Shown here one piece after another: positions 5,591 to 59,027 of a DNA stretch of 64,000 nucleotides (position 1 is its first letter; each line of letters starts with the position of its first letter). The position numbers were made by a program, and so were the translations under genes. This DNA comes from Sporocytophaga sp. Lineage in GTDB: Bacteria; Bacteroidota; Bacteroidia; Cytophagales; Cytophagaceae. The stretch covers positions 151,565 to 215,564 of the forward strand of contig NZ_JAGHZZ010000007.1 in NCBI RefSeq assembly GCF_017745095.1, read 5' to 3'. The notes below the pieces were generated by a model. The model saw only the letters and a list, made by a program, of their open reading frames with translations. It was not told the origin of the DNA and did not search any database.

Positions 5591-6169
5591 ATGATCAGGA
5601 AATTTATAAACATTGCAGCTCTTTACCTTTTGTTATCTGCAGGTAAACCATCGGAAAGCTTATCTCCAAAGGACTGTTGCAAGCCCAGTCTTTGGGACGA
5701 AGTTTTGAATATCGATACATTAAAAATCGGAGCAATACCTGTCTATACAGATACGCTTACATTGCTTTCCAGTTTAGGAGCTCCAGAGAAAACAAGTGTA
5801 TGCGGCGCATCAGGATTGTACAGACCAGAAAAGTTTCCCCTTACAAATCCAATTTACATGTGGTCATATAAAGGAATTGATTTCCTTGTAAACGGAGACA
5901 AGGTAAATCTTAAGCTTGTCCGATTTACCGAAGCGCCCTCGACTCTGAGATTGACATATCCTTCATTAACGTTATGTCATTCAACCAGACTTGCAGATGT
6001 TAAAAAGATATTCCCGGTATCGGTCAGAATATCCTATGATTACTTTGATCCGGAAAGAAAGGAGACATTCAGATTGGTAAGGATCAATCCAAGGGAAGCA
6101 TGGACCGATGAGTGGATTCTGAGATTTAAGGGAAACAGATTATATGAAGTTGAATTCTGGACTCCTTGA
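5591..6169 (+). CDS. Hypothetical, probably exported protein
   Basis: 192-aa ORF with N-terminal hydrophobic stretch. Confidence 0.65.
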   Translation: MIRKFINIAALYLLLSAGKPSESLSPKDCCKPSLWDEVLNIDTLKIGAIPVYTDTLTLLSSLGAPEKTSVCGASGLYRPEKFPLTNPIYMWSYKGIDFLVNGDKVNLKLVRFTEAPSTLRLTYPSLTLCHSTRLADVKKIFPVSVRISYDYFDPERKETFRLVRINPREAWTDEWILRFKGNRLYEVEFWTP

Positions 6170-6253
6170 GCTGATTATCTATGTCTTCTCTGTGGAAGAA
6201 AAAATTACACAGAGAAAACACAGTGAAATTTAACATTGCTTATTACCAACAAT

Positions 6254-6460
6254 TCAGGAAAGGATTTTATATCCAGCTTTGTCGAGTGTTTTCTGTACAA
6301 TCTCAGGAGAAATATTTTCCCCCTTTACAGTCAGAATTTTATCGTTGGATTTTATATCGACATCCCATTCTTTTATTTCAGACGCCTCGTCTAAAGCTTT
6401 TCCAGCCTTTTCAACACAAGCTCCGCATTTGATATTTGTTTTAAATTGTAGAGTTTCCAT
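6254..6460 (-). CDS. copZ: Heavy-metal-associated (HMA) copper chaperone, CopZ-like
   Basis: 68 aa, IKCGAC CxxC motif, directly downstream of copA. Confidence 0.8.
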   Translation of the reverse strand: METLQFKTNIKCGACVEKAGKALDEASEIKEWDVDIKSNDKILTVKGENISPEIVQKTLDKAGYKILS

Positions 6461-6545
6461 GACTTACCTCGTTATTTATTTCTATAAAGTTAATGCTAAT
6501 CTGAATTACGGTTCTTATATAATTTTGAATATTATTTACACTTAG

Positions 6546-8759: not shown

Positions 8760-8867
8760 AATTATTATCAGCTATTTTCAGAAGGACACATTTCCTCCTA
8801 ACCCTAGCAAAGTAACAATTAAATGAAGGGAATTTGCTTACAAAATTATGGGAAAGAGTTGTAGATA

Positions 8868-8909
8868 AAAGCGGAAGGCTTAAAGCTTAAAGCGGAAGGT
8901 TTAAAGAGA
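8868..8909 (+). repeat. Array of six degenerate 7-mers (aaagcgg aaggctt aaagctt aaagcgg aaggttt aaagaga)
   Basis: Read directly; 16 bp (8882-8897) is the perfect reverse complement of 9036-9051. Confidence 0.75.
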
Positions 8910-9029
8910 AAGTGTTTGCATGAATACCAGGGATATTATTTTTTCCATAGTAAGTTTAAGGAGTTGAGTATATAACAAAAGGAGTTTTTTTAGAAGTATC
9001 TAAATAATAGAGCTAAGCTTATTGTCACT

Positions 9030-9060
9030 TCTGCTTTCCGCTTTAAGCTTTTCGCTCTTT
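9030..9060 (-). repeat. Inverted partner array of 7-mers (agagcga aaagctt aaagcgg aaagcag on the minus strand)
   Basis: Read directly. Confidence 0.75.
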
Positions 9061-9626
9061 CAACTTATATCATCAAGAGGCTTACGCTGATGGCCTTTAA
9101 GCTTTTTAAATTCGGAGGATGAAAAACCGGTGATCTGTTTGAATTGATTACTGAGGTGCGCTACACTGCTATACCCAAGCTTATACGCCAATTCACTCAA
9201 GGTAAGCTCATTATATATTAAATATTCTTTTACTTTTTCTATCTTTTGCAGGATTATATATTTTTCGATTGTAAGATTCTCTATTGAAGAAAATAAATTG
9301 GATAATGTGTGATAATCCTTACCTACTTCTTTTGCCAGAAATTCAGAATAGTTTACATCAAGCTCTCCTTCATGATGATGTATCTGCTCAATCAATAGTG
9401 TTTTAATCTTCTCAACTAGTTTAACTTTTTTATCTTCCAATAATTCAAAGCCATTTTCCTCCAACACTTCCTTTATTTTAGACATTTCAGGTTCTTTTGG
9501 AGCATCTATTACTACTTCCCCAAGACGTATATCTTTTACATTTACAGAAAGCTTTTCCAGCTCATCCTTAACCACTTTAATACAGCGGTTACAAACCATA
9601 TTTTTGATGTATAAATGAAATTCCAT
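9060..9626 (-). CDS. AraC-family regulator with N-terminal CxxC metal-binding (HMA-like) domain
   Basis: IKNMVCNRC N-terminus; C-terminal LTLSELAYKLGYSSVAHLSNQFKQITG AraC HTH. Confidence 0.9.
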   Translation of the reverse strand: MEFHLYIKNMVCNRCIKVVKDELEKLSVNVKDIRLGEVVIDAPKEPEMSKIKEVLEENGFELLEDKKVKLVEKIKTLLIEQIHHHEGELDVNYSEFLAKEVGKDYHTLSNLFSSIENLTIEKYIILQKIEKVKEYLIYNELTLSELAYKLGYSSVAHLSNQFKQITGFSSSEFKKLKGHQRKPLDDIS

Positions 9627-9806
9627 AAGTCTTCAAATTATTTAACAAAATAAAAGATCGCTTCATTACTTCACAAATCTTTTGAAAGAAAGCTTGAAAT
9701 TTTATGAATTAAAGAAATTAATTTCCTTAATTCACAAGCAATTAAAATAGATGAATAAGTTTTACAACAAAGTTGGATTTTAAGCGTTTCCACTTTTTTA
9801 TGCCCT

Positions 9807-10316
9807 ATGAAAACAAAATTCTTCCTTCTGACATTTTTAATCTTTTCAGGTTTCGCATCTATAGCCCAATTCAAATCAGCTAAAATAGGAATAGATGGCC
9901 TTACTTGTTCCATGTGCTCGAACAGTGTTGAAAAACTTCTACTCCAACTGGATTTTGTTGAGTCTGTAAAAATGGATCTAAACACGAATGAAGCAACTGT
10001 TATATTCCGCCAGAAATATAAAACTGATTTCAAAAAGGTTAGTCAAAAAATCTATGATTCAGGATTTTCTGTCAGAGAAATTTCAACATCCCTTAACTTT
10101 GATACTATCAACCTTGATGGAAATGCTTTTCAGGTCAATGGAGATAAATTTTATATTTTGAGTGAAGAGAAAGCCAACCTTTCTGGTGAAAGGTCATTCA
10201 GGTTTCTCGATAAGAATCTTATCAGCAAAAAAGAATTCAGTCATTGGTCGTATTTCATTAAGGAAAACGACAAGGTCCATAATGAAAAACAGAAAGCATA
10301 CCACATCAGTCTATGA
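9807..10316 (+). CDS. Exported HMA-domain protein
   Basis: Signal peptide followed by GLTCSMC. Confidence 0.8.
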   Translation: MKTKFFLLTFLIFSGFASIAQFKSAKIGIDGLTCSMCSNSVEKLLLQLDFVESVKMDLNTNEATVIFRQKYKTDFKKVSQKIYDSGFSVREISTSLNFDTINLDGNAFQVNGDKFYILSEEKANLSGERSFRFLDKNLISKKEFSHWSYFIKENDKVHNEKQKAYHISL

Positions 10317-11281
10317 AAAAAATACTGATTTTATCTTTTCTTGTTCTTTCGTTCTTCAAAGGCATTTGCCAGGAGCTTTTCCCTTATGCTGAATCTGCAA
10401 GTAACATACCTAAGAATGTCCTTGGCATGCGTTTTTTATTTGAAGGATATAAAGAAATACCATCACAAAGACAAAGGAACTGGGGTGCGCTGAGGGCTAT
10501 GTATGGTATTACCGGAAAAACAACTTTGATGGTGACAGCAGCAGGATCGAACCACCATCTGGCCAAATTCCCTGCGAACCTTCAAAATTATTTTGCAAAT
10601 CACCATCAGCGAGTTTATAAACCAAATCCTTATCTACTGGAAGGTATTAATATTTATCTGAAACAACGAGTGATCAGCGTGGACGGCTTCCAGAAACATC
10701 TCAGAGTAGCTTTGTTCGGACAAGCATGCAAGTCCTTTGTACCACATGATGAATCAGAACCTTTTCTAATGGGTGATAATTCTGGCTATGGAGGAGGAGC
10801 AATTATCACTGGATTGTACAAGAGATTTGCGATATCCTTTACTTATGCATACGCTCATCCCTTGCTCTATAAAGACAAAGCTCAACAGATTACATTCCAG
10901 GCGGGAGACGCCAACAACTACGATATCTCATTAGGGTATCGTCTCTTCCCTTCAAAATACTCGACCTATAATGATTTGAATATAAATCTTTATGTAGAAT
11001 TTGAGAATAGAAGCTACGGTGCTGCTGAGATGACAGTTAGAGATGCACTTTATGACTTTAGTTATTTAAAAAACTTTGACCAGAATGTTTACTATAGTCT
11101 TATGGATGGTAAATACTCAGAGATAAAACCTTCCATTCAATTGATCTTTAACTCAAATAACAGGATAGATATAGGATGTGCTTACCCTTTCTACAATAGA
11201 TCTTACACTCATTTTTATCCCCTCTTTTTCTTTAATATTCAAAAGTATTTTTATTTCTCCAAAAAGAAGAAAAAAGTCTAA
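10313..11281 (+). CDS. Hypothetical exported, possibly outer-membrane protein coupled to the HMA gene
   Basis: ATGA overlap with the upstream stop; signal peptide; aromatic-rich alternating strands. Confidence 0.7.
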   Translation: MKKILILSFLVLSFFKGICQELFPYAESASNIPKNVLGMRFLFEGYKEIPSQRQRNWGALRAMYGITGKTTLMVTAAGSNHHLAKFPANLQNYFANHHQRVYKPNPYLLEGINIYLKQRVISVDGFQKHLRVALFGQACKSFVPHDESEPFLMGDNSGYGGGAIITGLYKRFAISFTYAYAHPLLYKDKAQQITFQAGDANNYDISLGYRLFPSKYSTYNDLNINLYVEFENRSYGAAEMTVRDALYDFSYLKNFDQNVYYSLMDGKYSEIKPSIQLIFNSNNRIDIGCAYPFYNRSYTHFYPLFFFNIQKYFYFSKKKKKV

Positions 11282-11817
11282 TTCTTTCTTCCTGATTTAA
11301 GAAGATCAAACACAACTCCTGATACAATTGCATAAATAATGTAATGTACTCCACTTACAGATATTGATTGGGGCCCCCATTTCTTTATAGGAGGAGCAAG
11401 ATGCAATTTGGGAAACATTACAAGTTCAGTTGTAAATACAGACGAAAAATGAATAGCATCTGCCAAAATTCCTTTTAAGCCGGCAGAACCAATAACTCCT
11501 CTTACTCCTCCCCATACTGTCCCATAGGCATAATGAATGATATTTATTAATTTCTCTTTGAGAATTAGCTTCACTGCCGGTAATAGATTTCGAACCGGAA
11601 TACCTAATACCTTTCCTAAAGCCTGAAAAAGAGTATCATTTTCTGCTCTTTTCGTAAACTTCATTTCAAGTATCTGAGAAACATTCATTGCTGCAGTTCC
11701 GATAAATCCTGCAACCAAACCTCTTCCCAAGTCGCCAGCAAAAGTCCCTACTGAATAAATTGCTTCTTCTTTAAACCTATCCCCGATGCTTTTCCTTTTA
11801 AAATTCAATAGTCCCAT
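11278..11817 (-). CDS. Hypothetical membrane protein, tandem paralog 1 (start reassigned to MGLLNFKRK)
   Basis: Aligns by eye with 12013-12522 from the KRKS motif onward. Confidence 0.75.
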   Translation of the reverse strand: MGLLNFKRKSIGDRFKEEAIYSVGTFAGDLGRGLVAGFIGTAAMNVSQILEMKFTKRAENDTLFQALGKVLGIPVRNLLPAVKLILKEKLINIIHYAYGTVWGGVRGVIGSAGLKGILADAIHFSSVFTTELVMFPKLHLAPPIKKWGPQSISVSGVHYIIYAIVSGVVFDLLKSGRKN

Positions 11818-12012
11818 ATTCAAATTCATTTGTATTAAAAACATCAGGAGATAATCCTTGGTTCGAATTCCGTGGATAACCAATAATCCCTTTCCAGACA
11901 AGGAAAGCATCACCTATTTAGGATATTATCTTCATTCATTTGACTCACACTAAGGCCATGTAAAGCGATTTGCTTTAAAGAGAGCACATAATAAACTAGG
12001 TGGTAATAGATT

Positions 12013-12522
12013 CTACTTTCTTTCTGATTTGAGAAGATCAAACACAACTCCCGATACAAGAGCATAAACAATGTGGTGTACCCCACTTATAGAAATTTCC
12101 TTAGCCCCCCATTCCTTTACCGGAGGAGCAACTTTTAAACCTGGAAGCATTACTAATTCTGTTCCGAAAACTGAAGAAAAGTGTAAGGCATTTGCAGGAA
12201 TACCTTTAAGCCCAAGAGTACCTATAATACCTCTAATACCTCCCCATGCTGTGCCATAAGTAAAATGTATACCATTTACCAGTTTACTTTTAGACTCATC
12301 ATTATTAGCATGAACATCAAGTACTTTTTCTGCTGCTTTTAAAGGGGAATCGCTTCCTTCTCTTCCGGTAACTTTCATTTCTATTAACTGCGAAAGACTT
12401 ATAGCTATAGTACCAACAAGTCCCGAAAACAGCCCCCTGCCAAGGTCGCCAGTAAAAGTTCCAACAGAATGTATAGCTTTATCTTTTAAGCTCTTTTTTC
12501 TTTTTCTGAATAAACGTATCAT
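12013..12522 (-). CDS. Hypothetical membrane protein, tandem paralog 2
   Basis: Shares SVGTF.GDLGRGL, YGT.WGG.RG, LHFSSVF.TELVM and ISGVH.I.YA.VSGVVFDLLKS with paralog 1. Confidence 0.8.
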   Translation of the reverse strand: MIRLFRKRKKSLKDKAIHSVGTFTGDLGRGLFSGLVGTIAISLSQLIEMKVTGREGSDSPLKAAEKVLDVHANNDESKSKLVNGIHFTYGTAWGGIRGIIGTLGLKGIPANALHFSSVFGTELVMLPGLKVAPPVKEWGAKEISISGVHHIVYALVSGVVFDLLKSERK

Positions 12523-12564
12523 CAGTCCTCCCTCTATTACAGAAAGAAAACAAGTGAAAAAGTA

Positions 12565-13044
12565 TCAGGGTTCGAATTCAGAAGGACTATTAACTTCTTT
12601 CCAGACAAGAAAAGGTTTTTCAGCATCTGCGACTTTCAATTGTTGTAAGGGATACTGCCTTTGCTCATTTGATTTACCGACTTCAGTGTATATGTGGCTT
12701 ACACCGAACCCATGTAATGCTGCCTGTTCCAATGAAGATCCATAATAAACAGTTCTTATTCCTGAAATATAAATGGCAGCGAGACACATGGGACAAGGGT
12801 GACCGCTTGCATAAATTACGCAACCTTCCAGAAATTCTGAATTTAATCGGAAAGCAGCTTTCCTTATTGCTTGAATTTCGGCATGTGCTGTAGGATCATG
12901 AATGTGAAGTACATCATTTACCCCCTTAGCTAATACTTCTCCGTTCTTCACTATCAAAGCTGCGAAAGGTTTTCCATCATTTAAGCGAACATTTTCAATA
13001 GCTGAATCAATTGCTTCCTTTAAAAACTCTTCATTTGTTTTCAT
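12565..13044 (-). CDS. Zn-dependent nucleoside/guanine deaminase (cytidine deaminase fold)
   Basis: HAEIQAIR and PCPMC motifs; PFAALIVK.G.V. Confidence 0.9.
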   Translation of the reverse strand: MKTNEEFLKEAIDSAIENVRLNDGKPFAALIVKNGEVLAKGVNDVLHIHDPTAHAEIQAIRKAAFRLNSEFLEGCVIYASGHPCPMCLAAIYISGIRTVYYGSSLEQAALHGFGVSHIYTEVGKSNEQRQYPLQQLKVADAEKPFLVWKEVNSPSEFEP

Positions 13045-48115: not shown

Positions 48116-49495
48116 TTAATGACTAATAAGCGGTAAACCATTTTCTTCAGCATCAACACCCTGTCCATATTTTTCAACTATTTGGCTGAATGGTTTATTC
48201 GTGAATGCTACCTGGAAATACTCTGTTTCATACTCTCCATTGGAATGTTTCATGGCCTCATGTGCCTGATTCCATTTCTCATCAAAATCTTTGTTATGGC
48301 ACTTTCTAAGCTTTTTATAATTCTTATTTGCCATAGCCTTCATTGCCTCAGTGTCGCCAATCCTTCTTTCAGTAAAATGAGTAATAGCTTTGCCAATATC
48401 TCCACCAAATTCATCGATAAGATGAGCAAACACCCTAACACTTTCCATACAGGTATTCATACCCATAGCATAGAAAGGAGGCATAGCATGGGCCGCATCT
48501 CCTACCAGCAAGACCTGATCTTTAAAGTTCCAATTGGTGCATTTTATCTCAGAGATTTTAGATTCGGGATTGCTGTTGAACTCGGATATGAACTGCTCCT
48601 TATCAATAAATGAAAGGAACTGGCAGTTTTCCTGTACGAATTCAAACAACTTTTCATTATCCTTCAATTTATTTACTTCACAAGATTCTGTATAGAACAA
48701 AGTACCATTAAAGCCCTTCTTACCATCAGGCAGCGCAACGAACAATAGCTCGGCTATATTCCAAATGTGTACATAATTCGGATCCAATACATACTCACCG
48801 TTTCTCGGAGGTATATAAATCTCTTTGAATCTGTAGTCCAGAGTCGAAAGGGTTGCATCTACCAAACCCTGATCCACCAACCTTTGTCTAACACAAGAAA
48901 AAGTACCGTCGCAGCCAAATAAATATTCATATTTAACAACTCTTTCAGTGGTAGTATCTTGGCCCTCTATACTATAATTGGTATTTGTGATAAATGTAAT
49001 CTCCTTATCATCTACATTAATTCCTTCTAATTTATGTCCATAATAGAACTCTACATTACCTGTTTCCAAACAAGCGTCCATCAGGTAAAAATTAAAATGT
49101 TTTCTATTGACAGTATAAATGGCCTCTTTGTTAGCTCCATAATACTGAGGATATACCTGCCCGCTTCGTAAATGAACAGCACGTCCATATTTAGGCACCA
49201 GCAATGATTTGTAACTATCATACAAACCCAAATCTTTAAGAGTAGTAACTCCTCTTTCACTGATCGACATCCCTACTGTCCTTTTCTTAATTTCATTGTT
49301 ATTTATAAGGTTCATTCTTTTTTCATAAACCTGTACCTTATAACCCTTCTTCGCCAAATACAAAGCCAATGTACAACCACTAATGCCTGCACCAATAACT
49401 ACGACAGGCTTATTTTCTAAATAATCGATATTCGTTCCCACGCACTTAATTAATTTACTTATATATATAAGGCTAACAGGTGGACTGGCAGGCAC
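48116..49495 (-). CDS. FAD-dependent monooxygenase, divergent kynurenine 3-monooxygenase-like (start uncertain)
   Basis: VIGAGISG, RTVGMSISERG, GCDGTFSCVR, HIW, VGDAAHAMPPFYAMGMN align with KMO motifs RSINLALSxRG, GADGAFS, GDAAHAIVPFYGQGMN. Confidence 0.85.
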   Translation of the reverse strand: MPASPPVSLIYISKLIKCVGTNIDYLENKPVVVIGAGISGCTLALYLAKKGYKVQVYEKRMNLINNNEIKKRTVGMSISERGVTTLKDLGLYDSYKSLLVPKYGRAVHLRSGQVYPQYYGANKEAIYTVNRKHFNFYLMDACLETGNVEFYYGHKLEGINVDDKEITFITNTNYSIEGQDTTTERVVKYEYLFGCDGTFSCVRQRLVDQGLVDATLSTLDYRFKEIYIPPRNGEYVLDPNYVHIWNIAELLFVALPDGKKGFNGTLFYTESCEVNKLKDNEKLFEFVQENCQFLSFIDKEQFISEFNSNPESKISEIKCTNWNFKDQVLLVGDAAHAMPPFYAMGMNTCMESVRVFAHLIDEFGGDIGKAITHFTERRIGDTEAMKAMANKNYKKLRKCHNKDFDEKWNQAHEAMKHSNGEYETEYFQVAFTNKPFSQIVEKYGQGVDAEENGLPLISH

Positions 49496-49881: not shown

Positions 49882-51078
49882 TCAACTTGCAGATTTTAAA
49901 AATCCTTTTCTCTCCAATGCATTTTCAATGATAGATGAAAAATCCTCTGCTCTTTTTTGCCATGAATTACCAGATGCAAATTTTATTCTTGCCTCTTTCT
50001 TAATTTCATTATCGGTATTCAATTCTTCTCTTATAGCATTAAGAAAACTTTCCTTAGAAGAGACAAAATGAATAAAGGAATCGAACTCCGGAAGATCTGC
50101 AAAATTTGACGAAACCACCGGCTTACCTACTGCAAGGTATTCATTGAACTTTAATGGATAGACGCTCCTTGTATAATCATTTTTTAAATAAGGAACAATC
50201 CCCAGATCTATCCCTCCTATTATTACTGGGATTTCTTCAGGCTTTTTAGCGCCTAGCCATCTCGTATTTGAAAATTTAGATAAAATTCTAAAGGCATTTT
50301 CATCGGGTGTTCTTCCTGCAAAAAGAAATTCAACATCAGGTAAATTTTCTATCAAATACTTCATCGTTTCAATATCAAATCGATCGTCAATACTTCCTGT
50401 ATACCCTATCACTTTCCTTTTTGCATTCCTAACATTTGCTGCATGCATATTAAATCGATTGAAGTCAACTCCGTTCTTAATTAAATAGCATTCTTTGGTT
50501 TTACTACTCTTCGAATGAAACAGAATTTCTGAAGTGGTAATGACAACATCCGCTTTATTTATATAATCATTCTCGATCAGAATCCCATGATTGGAGTTCC
50601 ATCCTGTTGCTATTTCATCATAACAGTAATAGATATTTAATATTTCATCAAGCCGTCCTGCAAGCATTGTTCCATAATAAGGATTAAATCCTGAAACAAT
50701 AATCGGATCTTTGATTTTAAGTTGTTGAACTGCTCTTTTAATTTCACTTTCAACAATGCGAGCATTTACCCTTAATAGTTTTAAAAAAAGTGGATGAGAG
50801 GGTATCATATTGATGGGAAGCACTGGGGGAGGACTTAAGACATTAATAGTTGAACTAACCCTGGTTTTCACTTCTCGCAATCTTGGTTCAAATCCTAATA
50901 TCTTTTTAAAGGGAATAGCCTTAGGGCCCCTTAAAAAATCTTTAAAACTAAATGCATAGTCTACATGCAGTACTTTATTTTCTGAACTTAAAACAGTCAT
51001 GATTTCTGCCATAGTATTTGTGAAATTACTTTCCCACATATTGTTTCCAAGGCAGATTATATTTTGATCTTTTAGCAT
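49882..51078 (-). CDS. GT-B glycosyltransferase (GT4/TuaH-like); start reassigned to MLKDQ
   Basis: IYYCYD, TS..L, IKNGVDF, GY.G.ID.RFD, PLKFNEYLA.GKPVVS. Confidence 0.88.
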   Translation of the reverse strand: MLKDQNIICLGNNMWESNFTNTMAEIMTVLSSENKVLHVDYAFSFKDFLRGPKAIPFKKILGFEPRLREVKTRVSSTINVLSPPPVLPINMIPSHPLFLKLLRVNARIVESEIKRAVQQLKIKDPIIVSGFNPYYGTMLAGRLDEILNIYYCYDEIATGWNSNHGILIENDYINKADVVITTSEILFHSKSSKTKECYLIKNGVDFNRFNMHAANVRNAKRKVIGYTGSIDDRFDIETMKYLIENLPDVEFLFAGRTPDENAFRILSKFSNTRWLGAKKPEEIPVIIGGIDLGIVPYLKNDYTRSVYPLKFNEYLAVGKPVVSSNFADLPEFDSFIHFVSSKESFLNAIREELNTDNEIKKEARIKFASGNSWQKRAEDFSSIIENALERKGFLKSAS

Positions 51079-51771
51079 TTTTATAGATTTATAAAATATC
51101 AACTGTGATGTGATATTTAAGTTAGGACAAGACTATTTAAGGCTTTTGCTTTGTTTGTCTCACTCACTAAAGTTCATACATAGATAAAAACTCATTATAT
51201 AAAGCTTGCACTCATCGATAATAACTCCCTTGTAATCATTTCCTCCCTAGGACTTTTAATCACTCTACCCCAATCCTATCATTTACCACACAGTTTAATT
51301 TAATTTTACAAATGGGATATAATGATCCATTAAACCAATACCGGAGAATAATATTGCTTCTGATAAATAAAATACACTGAAATACTCTATCTCATTTATC
51401 TATAATATTATTTACTATTATACTAGAAAGAGACCGATGGCGGAGAATAAATCAATTATTTCTTCCTTGAACATTGGTAAAAAAACTTCCCCTTACTCTT
51501 ATAAATTTACCCTATGTAAAAAATTTTTGCTTACAAATATTTGCTGACATTCTAAAATGTTATGGATTTAACATTTTGTAAAATTTTATATTACTTACTA
51601 AAAAAATAATAAATGGCTTTATAAAACTTTAATTAATCTAAAGATCTACCAACAGTCAATAAAGACGGGTTTAATATGATTTTAATAACAAAGAAAATCT
51701 ATAGTACGTTTCTTTAATATCAAGCTTTTAAAAGATCACAAAATTAGTAAATTAAATTTAGTAAAAACACT

Positions 51772-54700
51772 ATGGAAAGTGAAGTAAGAGTATTAAGACA
51801 AAATGTAAGGTTACAAAAAAATAGTTTAGATAAACTCAAAGAAAAACTATCGCATCTCAACGAAAACAAATTTTCCTCATTTATACTATCACTAAGTGCA
51901 TTTATTGCTTTGGCAAAAAGATATACAGATCAAGATAAATTCTTAGTATCATATAATAACTCAATACACCCCAATGGAAATGTATTGAACAAATCAAATC
52001 AAAGGATCTCCTATATAGAAATAGATCTTTCAGAAGATCCTACTTTTGAAATTTTAATTCAACAATTGAATGATAAAATTCAAAAAGATACAGAGAGAAC
52101 AATAGCAGATAAAAAGGACTCTTATCCATTTGTTGTTAATTTTTCCTTTGATGATATACTTGAAGATGGTAGTTCCAATCTTAATTTAAATTTACAAAGG
52201 ACAGACAATCAAAATACCTTACCAGTTCTTTCAATTAATTTATCTAATTCCGAAGAGGATGTCATGTGTGGTTGCCTTGAAGCAAGACTAGACTTGATGG
52301 AAATTTCTATCTCTGAAAATAGTAATGAACACTATTGCAATATTTTAAGAGAAGCGATAATAAATCCTCAAAAGAGAATCTCCGAATGTAATATGTTGGA
52401 TGAAGCTGAAAGAAATAAAATTCTTTTTGAATGGAATGCAACTGAAAAAAATTACCGCAATAATATATGTTTACATCATTTAATAGAAGAACAGGTAGAT
52501 AAAACTCCTGATTCAACAGCCGTCATTTACAACGGTCATTCACTAACTTATAAGGAATTAAATAGAAGAGCTAACATTGTAGCGGCACGTTTAATTAATA
52601 GAGGAATAAAAGAAGAAGACCTTGTTGCTGTATTGTTTGAATTATCATTAGAATCTGTCGTAGCTATAATAGGAGTTTTAAAAGCTGGTGCTGTTTATGT
52701 TCCACTTGACACCAACTATCCTGTTAAGAGAATACAATTACTAGTGGACGATTCCAAACCAAAATTATTAATTACCAATTCAAGTTTAAAAGGTTTATTA
52801 GAGTTTCCAGAAGAGAAAAAACTTATAATAAGTGATAATGATTGGCTAAATAATGATTATTTAGCTAATCCGAAAACGGGTGTTAAACCTGAAAACGCGG
52901 CATATGTAATGTACACCTCCGGTTCTACGGGATCTCCTAAGGGAATTGTAATACAACATAATAGTGTTGTGAATAACATAATGTTGATAAAGGATCGATA
53001 CATGCTTACCCCAGAAGATACTGTTCCTTCTATGCCTTCATTAGCATTTGATGCTTCAGTTTCCAAGTTATTCCCGATATTAACTATAGGTGGAACAGTT
53101 GTACTTCCAACAGAAGAAGAAATAAGAGACGTAGAAAAAACGCTTGAATTAATCAATAAATACAATATGCCTTATTTTTCTACACCTCCAAGCATATTAA
53201 GAGTCATTAATTCAATTAATCCTGATTTATCGAAACTACGCAGTATATCTTGTGGAGGTGAAGCGTTGAAATTTTCAGATGTTAGTAATCTTAATAAACA
53301 CGTCCCTATAATTAACATATATGGGCCTACCGAAGCAACCGTTTCTTCCTGCACTTATACAATACCGAAAAACTCCAGCCCTATTACTTCTCGCATCCCA
53401 ATAGGAAAACCCAACCCTAACTGCAAGGTGTATATATTAGATAAACATTTAAATTGTATGCCCGTCAATTGCTATGGAACAATATATATTGGAGGAATTG
53501 GCGTAGCACGTGGTTATTTAAACAATCCGGAGTTAACAACACAAAGATTTATTAAAAGCCCTTTTGTAGAGGGAGAAGTATTGTACAATACTGGAGACAT
53601 TGGCAGGTGGCTACCAGATGGGAATATCGATTTCATTGGTAGAAATGATAATCAGATAAAGATAAGAGGTTTCAGGATTCAGATAGAGGAGGTTGAAAAG
53701 ATATTAATAAAGCACCCATCTGTTAACGAAGGTAAAATCATTGTTAAAGGCACAAGTAATGAAGATAAATTCATGGTCGCCTGTGTAATTCCAAAAGAGG
53801 GAGAAAGTTTGTCAATAGAATCGATGAGAGACTTTATTGAAAAATATTTACCTGATTATATGGTTCCTTCCGACCTTATACTTCTTGACCATTTTCCCCT
53901 TAATCAGAATAACAAGGTAGACTCAAAAGCTCTACTTCAAAAATATGACGAAAAAAAACCTATTCAACAACAAAAGGTATCTATCAGCAAGAATAGCATT
54001 GAGAAAGAACTCGTTATCTTTTGGAAAGAGATCCTGAATAAGGAAATCAATATTCAGGAAAATTTTTTCCACGCAGGAGGACATTCGCTTCATGCCATGC
54101 AACTGAAAATGTATATCAATAAGAAATTCAATACAGATTTTTCGATGAAAGACATTTTCAATAATCTTACAATTGAAAAATTAACTTCTTTAATAGCATC
54201 AAAAGCTCAAGTAAATGAAGATAATATTAATATATCAAATAGCCACCAAAACAAGAATCCTTTTATTGCTGAAAAACAAAGTATAGAAAATATAACTCCT
54301 ATCGAAGTATCAAACATAAGAACCCAAACTTTGGATACTTCAATAAATAAAAATGAGATAGGTTTAATTACCTCAAAAGATAAAGAAAGTAGCTTATATC
54401 AGTTGTTCTTCAAAAAACCAACATTATTTGACCTGTCATTTAACGAAAGAAGATTATGGTTTCTCTACCAATTTCTTCCTAATAAAGCTACTTACAATGT
54501 AGTTAAAGCCTATAATTTGTCAGGCAAATTGAATACAGGTGTATTAGAAAAAAGTGTAAAACAACTACTGGATAAGCATTTAAATTTAAGAAAAAACTTT
54601 ATTGAAGTAGATGGAGAACCTAAAGCTAAATTAAATTATAAAGCGACCTTTAAAGTAAGAGTATGCTGTTTATCTGATTTTTTAAAATCAACTTCTGACG

Positions 54701-55014
54701 ATGAAGAAACAATTATCCAAAAATTAATAGATGACGAAACTGAAAAGGCATTTGATCTAAGTAAAGATCTTCCTATTCGTTTAACTGTGATCAAAAAAGG
54801 GAAAGAAAGTAGTATTCTGATTATTTCTGCTCATCATATTATTTCTGATGCCTGGTCATTCGCTATCATATTAGAAGAACTGAATAAGCTTTATAATTCC
54901 AACCTCATCGACGAAGAAATAAATCTTGAGGATTTGACAAGAGAATATAACAGCTACGTTGGGGCGCAGAAACAACATCTAAATAAGAATAAGGTTATTG
55001 GAGAAATAAGCTAA
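51772..55014 (+). CDS. NRPS, 5' part: C-lobe remnant - A - T - N-lobe of a condensation domain
   Basis: YTSGSTGSPKG, FDAS, YGPTE, TGD, GRNDNQIKIRGFRI, GGHSL, HHIISDAWS. Confidence 0.92.
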   Translation: MESEVRVLRQNVRLQKNSLDKLKEKLSHLNENKFSSFILSLSAFIALAKRYTDQDKFLVSYNNSIHPNGNVLNKSNQRISYIEIDLSEDPTFEILIQQLNDKIQKDTERTIADKKDSYPFVVNFSFDDILEDGSSNLNLNLQRTDNQNTLPVLSINLSNSEEDVMCGCLEARLDLMEISISENSNEHYCNILREAIINPQKRISECNMLDEAERNKILFEWNATEKNYRNNICLHHLIEEQVDKTPDSTAVIYNGHSLTYKELNRRANIVAARLINRGIKEEDLVAVLFELSLESVVAIIGVLKAGAVYVPLDTNYPVKRIQLLVDDSKPKLLITNSSLKGLLEFPEEKKLIISDNDWLNNDYLANPKTGVKPENAAYVMYTSGSTGSPKGIVIQHNSVVNNIMLIKDRYMLTPEDTVPSMPSLAFDASVSKLFPILTIGGTVVLPTEEEIRDVEKTLELINKYNMPYFSTPPSILRVINSINPDLSKLRSISCGGEALKFSDVSNLNKHVPIINIYGPTEATVSSCTYTIPKNSSPITSRIPIGKPNPNCKVYILDKHLNCMPVNCYGTIYIGGIGVARGYLNNPELTTQRFIKSPFVEGEVLYNTGDIGRWLPDGNIDFIGRNDNQIKIRGFRIQIEEVEKILIKHPSVNEGKIIVKGTSNEDKFMVACVIPKEGESLSIESMRDFIEKYLPDYMVPSDLILLDHFPLNQNNKVDSKALLQKYDEKKPIQQQKVSISKNSIEKELVIFWKEILNKEINIQENFFHAGGHSLHAMQLKMYINKKFNTDFSMKDIFNNLTIEKLTSLIASKAQVNEDNINISNSHQNKNPFIAEKQSIENITPIEVSNIRTQTLDTSINKNEIGLITSKDKESSLYQLFFKKPTLFDLSFNERRLWFLYQFLPNKATYNVVKAYNLSGKLNTGVLEKSVKQLLDKHLNLRKNFIEVDGEPKAKLNYKATFKVRVCCLSDFLKSTSDDEETIIQKLIDDETEKAFDLSKDLPIRLTVIKKGKESSILIISAHHIISDAWSFAIILEELNKLYNSNLIDEEINLEDLTREYNSYVGAQKQHLNKNKVIGEIS

Positions 55015-58000
55015 GTGATAAAATTTCCAAATTAAAATTACCATATGAGCGTACTGGAAAAGATATCATTTCAGATAGCGCCTTATATGAAGAAATTTTA
55101 ATACCTAATACCATAATCAATTCACTAAAAAAATTTAGTAAAGAAAAAGATGTTACGTTCTTTATGACCTTCTTTAGTGCATTCCAATCCCTACTATATA
55201 AATATAGCCAAAACGAATTTATAAATACTGCAATTCCAATTGTAGATCGGGCTGATGCAGCAACAAAAAGACTAATTGGTTTTTTTGTAAACACTTTAAT
55301 TGTTCCCACTGATTTTTCCAAAGATGTTGCATTTGATGAATTGATAGAAGAAGTTAAACAAACATTATTAGAAGCTTTTCATCATCAAGATCTGCCATAT
55401 GAAATTCTTGCTAATGAATTAAGAAAGGAAACAGGAGCTGATGTAAATTCACTCATTCAAGTAATGTTTGCTTTTCAAAATGTACATGAAGATCCATTGC
55501 ATTTAACAGGAGTTAAAGCAGAGAATATTTTATTGAAAAATAAACATGCTAAGTTCGATCTTACAGTTTCTGTTTCCGAACAAGCAGAAGGTTATCTGGT
55601 ATCTGCAGAGTATAAATCTGATCTATTCCATTCTATTACAATAAAAAGAATGTTGAATTCATTCCATATGCTCTTAGAACAAGTAATGTCAAACCCTAAA
55701 ATCAAGTTATCTCAGATTGAAGTATTGAATCAATCGGTGAAAGAAGTCCTTACAAAAGTATGGAATGACACAAAAAGAAATCTTCCTGATTTTTCAGTAC
55801 ATGAATTATTTGAAAGACAAGTGTTCTCATCCCCGGATGCAATTGCACTAAATTGGAATGGCAAAAAAATCAGTTATAATGAATTAAATATTCGATCTAA
55901 TCATTTAGCACATTATCTTAAAAAACAAGGAATCTCTTCTGAAGAACTGGTAGGTATATTAATGGATGAATCGGAGTTTAGTATAATATCTCTGATTGCT
56001 GTTTTAAAGACAGGAGGTGCATACCTTCCTCTCGACCCTGCCTATCCAAAAGAAAGAATTGCTTATATGTTAAATGATTCAAAGGTTAAAACAATTATCA
56101 GTGAGAAAAAATATCTTGACTATCTTCCAGATTCTTCTTACCAATGGATTGTTTTGGATCAACTTGGTGAAGAATTAAGTAAAGAAAAAGATACCAATCC
56201 TGAAAGTAGAATACTTACCAATCATCTGGCCTATGTAATGTATACATCCGGTTCCACTGGTAATCCAAAAGGAGTTGGAGTAGAACATAAGAACATCATA
56301 AGGCTGGTGAAAAACACCAACTATGTTACATTAACAAGCAGCACTAAGCTATTAAAAACAGGCGCCTTTTCATTTGATGCATCAACATTTGAGGTATGGG
56401 GAATTTTATTGAACGGTGGTGAATTATTTGTATATCCAAAAGAAAATTTATTAGACCATCAATTGCTGAAAGAAAAGATAAAAGAGAATGGAATTTCTTT
56501 GATGTGGTTTACAGTATCCTGGTTTAATCAATTAGTAGATATAGATGTAGACATTTTTAAGCCTCTTCAATCAGTATTTGTTGGAGGCGATAAATTATCA
56601 GTGAAGCATATTAATAAAGTTAAACAAGCAATTCCTCACCTTGAAATAGTCAATGGATATGGGCCTACTGAAAACACAACTTTTTCTCTATATCATAAAA
56701 TAGAGCATACAAGTGAAGAAGACATTCCTATTGGTAAGCCAATCACGAATACCACCGTTTATATTTTGGACAAATCTCTTAATCTTCTTCCAATTGGAGT
56801 GCAAGGTGAAATTTATGTAGGAGGGAAAGGAGTTGCAAGAGGGTATATAAACGATGAAAAACGTACGCAAGAAAAATTCATTCCTGATCCATTTAGTTTT
56901 GAAGGAAGATTGTATAAGACCGGAGACCTTGGAAGATGGCTGGAAAATGGAACGATAGAATTTGGAGGAAGAAAAGACAATCAAATTAAACTTAGGGGAT
57001 ATAGAATAGAACTGGGAGAAATTGAAAATGCTATATCTAGCCATCCTCTGATAGAAGATTCTGTAGTGATTTTAAAAGATGACAATGGTGATAAAAAGAT
57101 TATAGGGTTTTATTTAAGCAATACGAATTTAACGGAAGCTGATGTAAAAACTTTTCTTAGAAAGACTCTTCCTGATTTTATGATACCTGTCTACCTGATC
57201 AAAAAGGAAAGCTTTCCATTAACTTCTAACGGAAAAATTAATCGTCAGGCATTAGCAAATAGTACTAAGAATTATATTAATGCAAACAAAACATTTGAGT
57301 TTGCCTTTAATGCAACAGAGGAAAAACTTGTGGCGATCTTTGAAGAGATTTTAGGAAGAGACGCTATCAGCATTACTGATAATTTCTTTGAATTAGGTGG
57401 ACATTCTCTTCTCGCTACAAAAGTAATGGCCAAAATTGAAAGGGAGTTTGGACAAAATTATCCATTGTCCATATTATTTGAAGCTCCTACTATTAAAGAG
57501 CTCAGTAAGGTTATAAAAGGAGATTCTGGAATTAAAAAAACAGGAATTATTCCTATACAACCTAAAGGAAATAAACCTCCGTTATTCTTATTGCCAGGAT
57601 ATTTATTCTATCATAATCTAGCAAAATATCTCGGAGAGGATCAGCCACTGTATGGATTTGAGCCATTAAATATAGACAGAACAGAAGAAGTTGCGGCTAT
57701 GTTTATAAAGCAAATGAAACAGATTCAGCCAACAGGCCCTTATTTCATTGGTGGATTTTGTGCCAGTGGAATCATCGCGTACGAAGTAGCTCAACAACTC
57801 ACTGCCGCAGGAGATGAGATTGGTCTGTTATCTTTATTTGAAGTTTATACTCCAGAAGCCACGGTTTCTAAGGCATCAAAGAAATATTTATCAGACAAGT
57901 TTGCTCATTGGAAGGCCGCATTCTCTTATAATTCTTTCAGAGCTAAGATAAAATTGATTTATAATGAATCTCAGAAACTCCTTCAATATTTCCTTCTTAA

Positions 58001-58265
58001 TCAATTTAGAAGTATGATAAGTGATTACAAGCTCAAACCATATGATGGAAAGATTGTATTGTTCAAAGCTTTAGATGAACTGGTAAGCTCATCTTCATCT
58101 GACCCTTACATGGGTTGGAATAGATACTGTTCAGCTCATAATATAACTTTGATTAAAATTCCAGGAAATCATAATACATTATTTAAAGAACCTTATATTG
58201 GTATTACTGCTGCGCAAATTAAAAAGTGTTTGGAAAATCAAAATTATCATGTTGAAGAAATTTGA
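54993..58265 (+). CDS. NRPS, 3' part (frame open from 54993; first ATG 55164): rest of C - A(Val-like) - T - TE
   Basis: YWRNKL..LKLPYER C-domain motif upstream of the called ATG; YTSGSTGNPKG, GGHSL, TE GGFCASG and GNH. Confidence 0.92.
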   Translation, partial: GYWRNKLSDKISKLKLPYERTGKDIISDSALYEEILIPNTIINSLKKFSKEKDVTFFMTFFSAFQSLLYKYSQNEFINTAIPIVDRADAATKRLIGFFVNTLIVPTDFSKDVAFDELIEEVKQTLLEAFHHQDLPYEILANELRKETGADVNSLIQVMFAFQNVHEDPLHLTGVKAENILLKNKHAKFDLTVSVSEQAEGYLVSAEYKSDLFHSITIKRMLNSFHMLLEQVMSNPKIKLSQIEVLNQSVKEVLTKVWNDTKRNLPDFSVHELFERQVFSSPDAIALNWNGKKISYNELNIRSNHLAHYLKKQGISSEELVGILMDESEFSIISLIAVLKTGGAYLPLDPAYPKERIAYMLNDSKVKTIISEKKYLDYLPDSSYQWIVLDQLGEELSKEKDTNPESRILTNHLAYVMYTSGSTGNPKGVGVEHKNIIRLVKNTNYVTLTSSTKLLKTGAFSFDASTFEVWGILLNGGELFVYPKENLLDHQLLKEKIKENGISLMWFTVSWFNQLVDIDVDIFKPLQSVFVGGDKLSVKHINKVKQAIPHLEIVNGYGPTENTTFSLYHKIEHTSEEDIPIGKPITNTTVYILDKSLNLLPIGVQGEIYVGGKGVARGYINDEKRTQEKFIPDPFSFEGRLYKTGDLGRWLENGTIEFGGRKDNQIKLRGYRIELGEIENAISSHPLIEDSVVILKDDNGDKKIIGFYLSNTNLTEADVKTFLRKTLPDFMIPVYLIKKESFPLTSNGKINRQALANSTKNYINANKTFEFAFNATEEKLVAIFEEILGRDAISITDNFFELGGHSLLATKVMAKIEREFGQNYPLSILFEAPTIKELSKVIKGDSGIKKTGIIPIQPKGNKPPLFLLPGYLFYHNLAKYLGEDQPLYGFEPLNIDRTEEVAAMFIKQMKQIQPTGPYFIGGFCASGIIAYEVAQQLTAAGDEIGLLSLFEVYTPEATVSKASKKYLSDKFAHWKAAFSYNSFRAKIKLIYNESQKLLQYFLLNQFRSMISDYKLKPYDGKIVLFKALDELVSSSSSDPYMGWNRYCSAHNITLIKIPGNHNTLFKEPYIGITAAQIKKCLENQNYHVEEI

Positions 58266-58394: not shown

Positions 58395-59027
58395 ATGGAA
58401 ATATTTTATACTAAGTTCGAGGACAAACTGGATCATAAGAAATTGATTGCATACATAAGAACTCTTCCCCTTTCAATGAGAAAAGATATTTTTAAATTTA
58501 AAATGCCACTTGATATTCAAGGGCACCTATTTGGAAAAATTTTATTAAAAAAAATATTTGAAAATTATTACAATACTGAAAATATATTAAATCAGTTGGA
58601 ATATAATAAATATGGCCGTCCATACATTTCCAATTCAACCATAAATTTTAGCATTTCTCATTCTGAGCAATTTTCAGCAGTTGCAGTATCAAATGGGTTT
58701 CCGATAGGGATAGACATTGAAAAAATGAAAGAGATATCTTTCTGCGATTTTAAAACTTTATTTACAGAAAGTGAATGGAATGTAATTTTAACATCAGCCA
58801 ATCCTTTAAAAACATTTTATGTTTATTGGACCAAGAAAGAAAGTACAGCAAAGGCAGATGGAAGAGGTCTTTCCATTCCTTTAAATGAAATTTTAATTGA
58901 AGATGCTATTTCAATTTTAAATAAAAAACGGTGGCACTTATTTGAAATTAATTTAGAGCCTGACTATATGATTCATATTGCAAGTGAACAACAAGAATTG
59001 ATCAATATCCATAGGTTTACTTTTTAG
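58395..59027 (+). CDS. Sfp-type 4'-phosphopantetheinyl transferase
   Basis: YGRP, FSISHS, IGIDIE, FYVYWTKKES..KADGRG. Confidence 0.92.
   Translation: MEIFYTKFEDKLDHKKLIAYIRTLPLSMRKDIFKFKMPLDIQGHLFGKILLKKIFENYYNTENILNQLEYNKYGRPYISNSTINFSISHSEQFSAVAVSNGFPIGIDIEKMKEISFCDFKTLFTESEWNVILTSANPLKTFYVYWTKKESTAKADGRGLSIPLNEILIEDAISILNKKRWHLFEINLEPDYMIHIASEQQELINIHRFTF

What the first reader, a model, noticed from the sequence alone, without database searches (positions are those of the whole stretch)
57540..58265. Thioesterase with a cysteine nucleophile
Seen: GGFCASG where GxSxG is expected, Glu (LFEVY) at the usual Asp position, His retained (PGNH). Established: Cys-nucleophile TEs catalyse unusual release chemistry in obafluorin (beta-lactone) and sulfazecin (beta-lactam) NRPSs, though they also occur in ordinary systems. 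Inference: non-hydrolytic or strained-ring release is possible.
Basis: partly seen in the sequence, partly recalled or inferred. Interest (0 to 1): 0.58.

Follow-up and report, generated by a model that had tools for sequence, protein, structure and literature searches.

The report
Cysteine thioesterase ending a broken NRPS
The release domain of a small two-module peptide synthetase does use cysteine instead of serine, but it belongs to an already known, fairly common class unrelated to the beta-lactone and beta-lactam makers, and in this genome the synthetase gene is cut by a 16-base deletion.

Summary
Observation confirmed. Window 57540-58262 (+) encodes a C-terminal type I thioesterase (TE) with Cys (GGFCASG), Glu (LFEVY) and His (PGNH). 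All three are conserved in every orthologue down to 48% identity. dN/dS against congeners is about 0.03.

The link to ObiF/SulM is not supported.
- The TE groups by sequence and predicted fold with AB3403 (also Cys), Pks13, skyllamycin, NocB and EntF TEs.
- ObiF1 and SulM do not match even at E <= 10.
- The acid sits after beta6 (position I), not after beta7 as in ObiF1/SulM.
- The motif is F-C-A, not SulM's Q-C-N.
- My manual reading of the last adenylation domain gives DAFWFGGTFK, close to a published valine code. Valine has no beta-nucleophile for a four-membered ring.

Cys is common in this TE family, and Glu at the acid position occurs almost only with Cys (C/E 53, C/D 37, S/D 91, S/E 3).

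The host gene, (C-remnant)-A-T-C-A-T-TE, carries a 16-bp frameshifting deletion in its condensation domain. All four congeners have it intact. A kynurenine-monooxygenase-like paralogue is conserved beside the NRPS in a second genus.

Verdict: a new member of a known kind. Non-hydrolytic (cyclising) release remains possible; strained-ring release is unlikely.

The parts
57540..58262 (+). Type I thioesterase domain (residues 793-1033 of ORF 55164..58265; P0001)
   Evidence: PF00975 at 55.1 bits. AlphaFold model pLDDT 92 with an alpha/beta-hydrolase fold. Best structural match is AB3403 TE at Z 26.1.
57759..57761 (+). Cys nucleophile codon (TGT; Cys866 of the ORF, Cys74 of P0001), elbow G-F-C-A-S
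   Evidence: It aligns with the Cys of AB3403 GGWCFGG and is invariant in orthologues.
57840..57842 (+). Glu at the acid position after beta6 (position I; Glu893 / Glu101)
   Evidence: It aligns with the Asp of AB3403, Skyxy, NocB and Pks13 TEs and lies directly after strand 94-100 in the model. The LFE.Y motif is conserved in orthologues.
58170..58172 (+). Catalytic His (His1003 / His211) in PGNH
   Evidence: It follows strand 202-207 and is invariant in alignments A1 and A2.
55164..58265 (+). Downstream ORF of the broken NRPS: C-terminal lobe of the C domain, then A2 (manual code DAFWFGGTFK), T2 (Ser748, nt 57405-57407) and TE
   Evidence: Pfam hits: Condensation profile 254-455, AMP-binding, PP-binding, Thioesterase. 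Code, coordinates.
51772..55014 (+). Upstream ORF of the broken NRPS: about 230-aa C-domain remnant, then A1 (manual code about DASSSGIVSK), T1 (Ser772) and the N-terminal lobe of the C domain (HHIISD at 54832)
   Evidence: Pfam hits: AMP-binding, PP-binding, Condensation profile 7-190..
54985..54998 (+). Site of a 16-bp deletion (junction near 54991/54992) that shifts the frame inside the condensation domain
   Evidence: DNA alignment with three congeners. The intact 2170-aa P0004 reads ...NKNKVSELLAYWKNKL... across the site. All four congeners have an open 2168-2229-aa frame.
58395..59027 (+). Sfp-type 4'-phosphopantetheinyl transferase
   Evidence: PF01648 and PF22624. Also next to the NRPS in a congener and in the order-level relative G235.
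48116..49495 (-). Kynurenine-3-monooxygenase-like flavoenzyme, a paralogue dedicated to the cluster
   Evidence: KMO structures match at E 3e-59. A 60%-identical orthologue lies divergently next to the NRPS in a second genus. A second KMO homologue at 30% identity and a Trp dioxygenase lie elsewhere in the genome.
49882..51102 (-). GT-B (group 1) glycosyltransferase
   Evidence: PF13692 and PF00534. Present in congener G002 but not next to the NRPS in the second genus.

Best explanation
This is the terminal type I thioesterase of a two-module NRPS with the layout (C-remnant)-A1-T1-C-A2-T2-TE. It belongs to the EntF/Pks13/NocB/AB3403 branch of TEs and carries a Cys-His-Glu triad in the ordinary geometry: Cys after beta5, Glu after beta6 (position I) and His after beta8. 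In intact orthologues the X-Val dipeptide on T2 is passed to Cys866 by thioester exchange, giving a dipeptidyl-S-enzyme. This intermediate is more reactive than the usual oxoester, and His1003/Glu893 then help a nucleophile attack it. My reading of the release step is as follows. Cyclising release is about 45% likely; the simplest form is attack by the free alpha-amine to give the diketopiperazine cyclo(X-Val), or attack by a side-chain nucleophile of residue 1. Plain hydrolysis to a linear dipeptide is about 35% likely. Four-membered ring formation is under 5%. Residue 1 is probably an aryl or kynurenine-type amino acid, because a KMO-like paralogue travels with the NRPS. In this particular genome a 16-bp deletion splits the condensation domain, so the assembly line is most likely dead and the TE is a recently orphaned, still intact relic. 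Shown here: the residues, their conservation, family placement, fold, the position of the acid, the deletion, and the conserved neighbour. Inferred: the acyl-thioester intermediate, the substrates, and the mode of release.
For: The closest solved relative by sequence, profile and fold is AB3403 TE, which also has Cys (GGWCFGG) with its acid at position I (PMC11298585). The triad is conserved in all orthologues from 98% to 48% identity, and dN/dS is 0.03. Among about 190 nearest TE domains the nucleophile/acid pairs are S/D 91, C/E 53, C/D 37, C/N 11 and S/E 3. The C/E state is clustered on the tree, needing 9 changes against 45.6 when labels are shuffled. Other C/E members sit in ordinary C-A-T-TE and A-T-TE termination modules. 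The last A domain reads DAFW[FLM]GGTFK across orthologues, and DAFWLGGTFK is listed as Val in PMC9113097. No HHxxxDG-bearing starter C domain precedes A1, so the dipeptide probably keeps a free amine. The characterised Cys-TEs cited in PMC11792885 (ObiF, SulM, BulbE, polymyxin TE) are all cyclases, and Cys-to-Ser variants of ObiF1 and BulbE shift to hydrolysis. The deletion is documented.
Against: No member of the orthologue group or of the C/E clade has a known product, so the release chemistry rests on analogy. AB3403, the closest solved relative, is itself uncharacterised. I derived the A-domain codes by hand from motif anchors, and the module-1 code matches nothing I know. I could not read the model's coordinates, so the Cys-His-Glu distances were not measured. 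An Asp/Glu also follows beta7 in the orthologues (LFKALDE, KSKDG), so a position II acid is not formally excluded, although such an acid is just as common in ordinary Ser/Asp relatives. The C/E association traces to a few clades, and the independent-pairs test had no power. The 16-bp deletion could still be an assembly error, since no reads were available.
Confidence: 0.7

Rival explanations
1. Plain hydrolytic TE. Cys is a lineage variant of the nucleophile with no consequence for chemistry, and the enzyme releases a linear X-Val dipeptide acid that the KMO-like enzyme and the glycosyltransferase then tailor.
For: Cys and Ser interchange often in this TE family, with about 25 changes on a tree of 188 domains. 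Cys forms sit in ordinary termination modules. Eight of 80 loci from species-representative genomes have Cys. The lid is short, about 60 residues in two helices. The related NocB TE releases its product by hydrolysis, as described in PMC11298585 and PMC11792885.
Against: All characterised Cys-TEs named in the literature I read are cyclases, and Cys-to-Ser variants of ObiF1 and BulbE shift to hydrolysis. Strict conservation of both Cys and Glu at dN/dS 0.03 suggests the pair matters.
Confidence: 0.35
2. An ObiF/SulM-like strained-ring former: the Cys thioester is attacked by a beta-heteroatom of the last residue to give a beta-lactone or beta-lactam.
For: A Cys nucleophile and a very small (dipeptide) substrate, as in obafluorin and sulfazecin (PMC11298585). 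An acidic residue also follows beta7 in the orthologues.
Against: No detectable sequence relation to ObiF1 or SulM. SulM TE shares only 9-10% identity at Z 19.5, against Z 26.1 for AB3403. Position I holds a conserved Glu rather than being vacated. The motif is F-C-A, not Q-C-N. The last A domain reads as Val-like in all orthologues. None of the neighbouring genes scanned against Pfam matched a sulfotransferase or another candidate supplier of a beta-hydroxy amino acid or Dap.
Confidence: 0.04
3. An intermolecular acyl transferase: like Pks13 TE, which passes its acyl chain to trehalose (my own knowledge, not checked here), the TE hands the dipeptidyl group to a sugar or another hydroxyl or amine acceptor.
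For: The best NCBIfam hit of the TE is the Pks13 model. Pks13 TE ranks second by fold at Z 24.7. Glycosyltransferase genes lie next to the NRPS in this genus and in G235.
Against: The glycosyltransferases belong to different families in the two lineages, and none is adjacent in the second genus. Similarity to Pks13 TE is at the level shared with NocB, FAS and EntF TEs.
Confidence: 0.07
4. The frameshift is an assembly artefact, the gene is intact, and the TE is active in this strain.
For: Both halves are otherwise open and 92-96% identical to the intact P0004. The genome is a 64-contig draft.
Against: The difference is a clean 16-bp gap in non-homopolymer sequence inside a long contig. That is not a typical base-calling error.
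Confidence: 0.15

Closest known systems
AB3403 (ABBFA_003403) termination-module TE of Acinetobacter baumannii, PDB 4ZXH/4ZXI
   Same: It is a type I TE fused after a T domain, with a Cys nucleophile in GG[WF]C..G and the acid on the loop after beta6 (position I). It is the best hit by sequence (5.8e-13), by profile (4.3e-44) and by fold (Z 26.1, 24% identity) (PMC11298585).
   Different: AB3403 has Asp where this TE has Glu, and GxCxG where this TE has GxCxS. It closes a single C-A-T-TE protein. Its product and reaction are unknown, so it gives no functional transfer.
ObiF1 TE (obafluorin beta-lactone) and SulM TE (sulfazecin beta-lactam)
   Same: A Cys nucleophile and a very small peptide substrate.
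   Different: Their Asp is moved to the loop after beta7 (RifR-like), ObiF1 has Gly at the usual acid site, SulM has Q-C-N, and they group with type II TEs (PMC6668435, PMC11298585). The window TE has none of these features and shows no detectable sequence relation to either. Its last module also reads as Val rather than a beta-hydroxy amino acid or Dap.
BulbE TE (bulbiferamide, indole N-acylation) and the polymyxin TE
   Same: They are Cys-dependent cyclising type I TEs. BulbE TE is reported as closest in fold to Pks13 and NocB TEs (PMC11792885), the same neighbours found here. They illustrate the idea that a thioester intermediate allows attack by a poor nucleophile.
   Different: They cyclise hexa- to decapeptides. 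BulbE has a 'second lid' insertion, whereas the model here shows only about 24 residues between strands 172-177 and 202-207. I had no BulbE or polymyxin TE sequence, so no direct comparison was made.
EntF, NocB, skyllamycin (Skyxy), Pks13 and FAS thioesterases (Ser-His-Asp, position I)
   Same: The same branch of PF00975, the same order of triad positions, and significant sequence and fold matches.
   Different: These use Ser and Asp where the window TE uses Cys and Glu.

Membership tests
Type I NRPS/PKS thioesterase (Pfam PF00975, alpha/beta hydrolase) | Profile match above the curated cut-off, located directly after a carrier domain | tested here: met
   PF00975 scores 55.1 bits against a cut-off of 26.4, at residues 815-1007 after PP-binding 720-783.
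Type I NRPS/PKS thioesterase (Pfam PF00975, alpha/beta hydrolase) | [quoted passage not shown] | tested here: met
   AlphaFold pLDDT 92.1, with helices 114-129 and 133-161 between strands 94-100 and 172-177. Z 19-26 to about 50 solved TE entries.
Type I NRPS/PKS thioesterase (Pfam PF00975, alpha/beta hydrolase) | Nucleophile elbow after beta5, acid after beta6, His after beta8 | tested here: met
   Cys74, Glu101 and His211 of P0001 lie at these places. The variant residues are Cys for Ser and Glu for Asp.
ObiF/SulM-type beta-lactone/beta-lactam-forming Cys-TE | Cys nucleophile | tested here: met
   GGFCASG.
ObiF/SulM-type beta-lactone/beta-lactam-forming Cys-TE | Catalytic Asp relocated to the loop after beta7 (position II), with position I vacated (Gly in ObiF1) | tested here: not met
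   Position I holds a strictly conserved Glu. An Asp/Glu does follow beta7, but it is equally frequent in Ser/Asp relatives. Side-chain distances could not be measured.
ObiF/SulM-type beta-lactone/beta-lactam-forming Cys-TE | Gln-Cys-Asn motif around the nucleophile (SulM criterion, PMC11298585) | tested here: not met
   The motif is Phe/Tyr-Cys-Ala in all orthologues.
ObiF/SulM-type beta-lactone/beta-lactam-forming Cys-TE | Last module activates a residue with a beta-nucleophile (Dap, or a beta-hydroxy amino acid) | tested here: not met
   My manual code DAFWFGGTFK, and DAFWLGGTFK in orthologues, matches the code listed as Val in PMC9113097. This is a prediction only, with no assay.
ObiF/SulM-type beta-lactone/beta-lactam-forming Cys-TE | Sequence and structure grouping with ObiF1/SulM (type II-like branch) | tested here: not met
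   Neither is among the PDB matches at E <= 10 or the 60 best for the family profile. SulM TE scores Z 19.5 at 9-10% identity, against Z 26.1 for AB3403. No joint tree could be built because their sequences were not obtainable.
AB3403-like Cys-TE (Cys with the acid at position I) | Cys nucleophile together with an acidic residue on the loop after beta6 | tested here: met
   Aligned residue by residue with AB3403, which is the top hit.
BulbE-like indole-N-acylating Cys-TE | 'Second lid' insertion between beta7 and alphaE | tested here: inconclusive
   The model has only about 24 residues between strands 172-177 and 202-207, with no extra helices. No BulbE sequence or structure was available for direct comparison.

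The most novel reading that the evidence does not exclude
The Cys-His-Glu thioesterases form an undescribed functional subclass. In this conserved pair of a KMO-like enzyme and a two-module NRPS, the thioester intermediate would exist to let a poor nucleophile attack the hindered valyl carbonyl. That nucleophile could be the aryl amine or phenol of a 3-hydroxykynurenine-type first residue. The result would be an unusual small cyclic dipeptide, a BulbE-like logic applied to a dipeptide.
Probability: 0.1. Interest if true: 0.6.

Novelty: new member of a known kind. Interest (0 to 1): 0.27.

Why it matters
Cys-for-Ser thioesterases are used as flags when mining genomes for beta-lactone and beta-lactam natural products. 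This case shows that the flag alone is weak. Cys is frequent in the EntF/Pks13/AB3403 branch, and what separates ObiF/SulM is the relocated acid and the nature of the last residue. The useful leftovers are modest. First, Glu at the acid position goes almost only with Cys in this family, a pattern I did not find described in the papers searched. Second, there is a small, uncharacterised NRPS with a co-conserved KMO-like enzyme in two genera of one Cytophagales family, best studied in the intact congeners rather than in this strain.

Tried and rejected
I therefore took orthologue DNA and context from the genome search and the fetch from genomes.
- I could not obtain ObiF1, SulM, BulbE or polymyxin TE sequences through any tool. 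PDB sequence, profile and fold rankings served as a proxy.
- Model coordinates are not exposed, so triad distances were not measured.
- The independent-pairs test of Cys/Glu co-variation had only 4 supported pairs and no power. I report the association as descriptive only.
- The search for related loci chose a pattern general to the whole TE branch, [IV]A[YF]E[MVI]AQQL. It returned 28-40% relatives from cyanobacteria, Acidobacteriota and others rather than near orthologues. I used those loci only to count Cys (8 of 80).
- Cluster names gave no functional annotation for C/E-type relatives.
- Literature searches for GXCXG and for Bacteroidetes Cys-TEs found nothing specific.
- I considered and rejected programmed frameshifting or a split C domain. 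The break is a 16-bp deletion absent from all congeners, and there is no start codon in the 170 nt before 55164.
- I considered and rejected a lipo-initiation role for the N-terminal C remnant, because only the C-terminal lobe remains and Pfam finds no Condensation match there.
Full report
**What is there**

Window 57540-58265 (+) translates without stops to a 241-residue domain ending the ORF 55164..58265. The opposite strand is closed. Pfam reads that ORF as the C-terminal half of a condensation domain, then AMP-binding, PP-binding and Thioesterase (PF00975, 55.1 bits against a cut-off of 26.4).
- GGFCASG, with the Cys codon TGT at 57759-57761
- LFEVY, with the Glu codon at 57840-57842
- PGNH, with the His codon at 58170-58172

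The elbow is strictly G-F-C-A-S. The last small residue is Ser in this genus and its sister genus, and Gly in more distant orthologues.

**Is it real and more than chance**

HMMER alignments to solved TEs put the Cys in the nucleophile column and the Glu in the Asp column of AB3403, skyllamycin TE, NocB and Pks13. An AlphaFold model built on 30 homologues has pLDDT 92 and pTM 0.89. It places Cys74 right after strand 68-73, Glu101 right after strand 94-100, and His211 after strand 202-207. This is the beta5/beta6/beta8 arrangement of type I TEs.

All orthologues recovered keep Cys, Glu and His: P0004-P0016 and P0036-P0041, from 98% to 48% identity. Against two congeners the TE has dN/dS of about 0.03, the lowest of the three segments of the gene compared. 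The Cys is therefore a selected feature, not noise.

**Where the TE belongs**

- By single-sequence search of the PDB, the best hit is AB3403 of Acinetobacter baumannii (4ZXH). Its elbow is GGWCFGG, so it is also Cys. Next come skyllamycin TE, NocB TE, Pks13 TE, fengycin TE and EntF.
- A profile of the family gives AB3403 4e-44, Skyxy 2e-38, Pks13 3e-33, FAS TE 5e-32, EntF 1e-27, and type II TEs (RedJ) only 0.02-0.03.
- ObiF1 and SulM chains are not among the 60 best profile hits. They are also absent from the 36 sequences that match P0001 at E <= 10.
- Foldseek and VIA-align agree. AB3403 scores Z 26.1 at 24% identity, Pks13 24.7, Skyxy 24.4, NocB 23.7 and EntF 23.3. SulM TE ranks 42-43 with Z 19.5 at 9-10% identity, and ObiF1 is not in the 50 entries shown.

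**What the literature says defines the lactone/lactam TEs**

In ObiF1 and SulM the catalytic Asp sits on the loop after beta7 (a RifR-like arrangement, 'position II'). ObiF1 has Gly at the usual site and SulM has a Gln-Cys-Asn motif. Both group with type II TEs, and the ring is closed by a beta-OH or a beta-sulfamate of the last residue. AB3403 is named as the only other solved NRPS TE with Cys, with its Asp at the usual 'position I' (PMC6668435, PMC11298585).

The window TE has a conserved acid at position I and an F-C-A motif.

My manual reading of the last adenylation domain gives DAFWFGGTFK, and DAFWLGGTFK in the sister genus. PMC9113097 lists the latter as a Val code. Valine has no beta-heteroatom. 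None of the neighbouring genes I scanned against Pfam matched a sulfotransferase or another candidate supplier of a beta-hydroxy amino acid or Dap. So every testable criterion for an ObiF/SulM-type reaction fails.

**How unusual is Cys here**

Among about 190 TE domains nearest to the query (representatives at 50% identity), the nucleophile/acid pairs are S/D 91, C/E 53, C/D 37, C/N 11 and S/E 3. On a FastTree tree with the three trait columns and the lid removed:
- Cys and Ser interchange about 25 times.
- The C/E state is clustered, needing 9 changes against 45.6 when labels are shuffled; supported branches force at least 4.
- A phylogenetically independent test had no power, so I describe the association rather than claim co-evolution.

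C/E-type TEs close ordinary C-A-T-TE and A-T-TE modules, one with a TubC docking domain and an inserted methyltransferase. In a separate sample from species-representative genomes, 8 of the 80 best loci have Cys. Cys is thus a common minority state in this branch. Glu at the acid position is almost confined to Cys forms, which I did not find described in the papers searched.

**The gene around it**

The upstream ORF 51772..55014 holds a roughly 230-aa C-domain remnant, A1, T1 and the N-terminal lobe of a C domain (HHIISD). It stops where another frame continues with the YW...L motif and runs into ORF 55164..58265.

A DNA alignment with three congeners shows a clean 16-bp gap at about 54991/54992. 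The intact 2170-aa P0004 reads through the site. All four congeners have an open frame of 2168-2229 aa. Both halves are otherwise open and 92-96% identical to P0004.

The simplest reading is a recent inactivating deletion in this strain. An assembly error cannot be excluded without reads. Either way, the biology of this TE is best studied in the intact congeners.

**Context**

In this genus the NRPS is flanked by a KMO-like flavoenzyme, a GT-B glycosyltransferase and an Sfp-type PPTase.
- The NRPS was found in this genome and all four congener genomes, in 3 of 3 genomes of a second genus of the same family, in one genome of another family (G235) and, more distantly, in one more. That is 10 of 401 genomes of the order sampled, and 5 of 401 of the phylum sampled.
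- In the second genus a 60%-identical KMO-like gene again lies divergently upstream. There is no adjacent glycosyltransferase or PPTase there.
- G235 keeps the PPTase and has a GT2 instead.
- The window's genome has a second KMO homologue at 30% identity and a Trp dioxygenase elsewhere.

So the cluster copy is a dedicated paralogue and kynurenine should be available. The conserved core is the KMO-like enzyme plus the NRPS. That makes an aryl or kynurenine-type residue 1 plausible; its manual A1 code, about DASSSGIVSK, matches nothing I know.

**Mechanism**

Shown: a Cys-His-Glu triad in ordinary position I geometry, on a dipeptide-sized assembly line with no functional starter C domain.

Inferred: T2-bound X-Val is passed to Cys866 by thioester exchange. 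The more reactive acyl-thioester is then resolved with help from His1003 and Glu893. The characterised Cys-TEs cited in PMC11792885 (ObiF, SulM, BulbE, polymyxin TE) are all cyclases, and Cys-to-Ser variants of ObiF1 and BulbE drift to hydrolysis. On that basis I weight the release step as follows:
- Cyclising release, about 45%. The candidates are the diketopiperazine via the free alpha-amine, or a ring through a side-chain nucleophile of residue 1.
- Hydrolysis, about 35%.
- Transfer to an external acceptor, about 7%.
- A four-membered ring, under 5%.

**Verdict**

The suggested kinship with ObiF/SulM chemistry is not supported. This is a new member of the known AB3403-type Cys-TEs, carrying a Glu variant of the triad, in a gene that is frameshifted in this genome.

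The scan's earlier notes on this window had independently flagged the frameshift, the KMO-like gene and the same A-domain codes. I re-derived or tested each of these here.

Noticed in passing
window 54985-54998: A 16-bp deletion relative to three congeners and to the intact P0004 shifts the frame in the middle of the NRPS condensation domain. All four congeners have an open frame of 2168-2229 aa.
   Followed up: yes
window 48116-49495 (-); L102:6170-7456 (-); G000:C11:87252-88502: The KMO-like flavoenzyme next to the NRPS has a 60%-identical orthologue in the same divergent position in a second genus. The window's genome holds a second KMO homologue at only 30% identity, plus a Trp dioxygenase elsewhere. 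The cluster copy therefore looks like a dedicated paralogue.
   Followed up: partly
proteins P0049, P0050, P0054, P0059, P0067, P0068 (relatives, not in the window): Large NRPSs of 2200-4500 aa carry an internal TE-like domain near residue 1100 with a Cys nucleophile and Asn at the acid position (GGYCFGG ... L[IM]NC[AV] ... PGAHE), plus a terminal Cys/Asp TE. Proteins of about 1250 aa (P0045, P0048, P0057, P0058, P0060, P0064) carry two TE-like domains in tandem.
   Followed up: no
L012 (G235) 5979-12612; L102 14317-14793; L103 5617-6096: Neighbours of the orthologous NRPS differ between lineages. G235 has a PPTase, a GT2, an unknown 523-aa ORF, a UbiA prenyltransferase, an FAD_binding_4 oxidase and an SDR. 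The second genus has a GyrI-like small-molecule-binding protein downstream of the NRPS and a DUF3836 protein with a Por secretion tail beyond the KMO-like gene on the upstream side.
   Followed up: partly
window 51772-52460: The first roughly 230 residues of the NRPS are a remnant of the C-terminal lobe of a condensation domain, with no HHxxxDG and no Pfam Condensation match. The orthologue P0016 instead carries methyltransferase domains.
   Followed up: no
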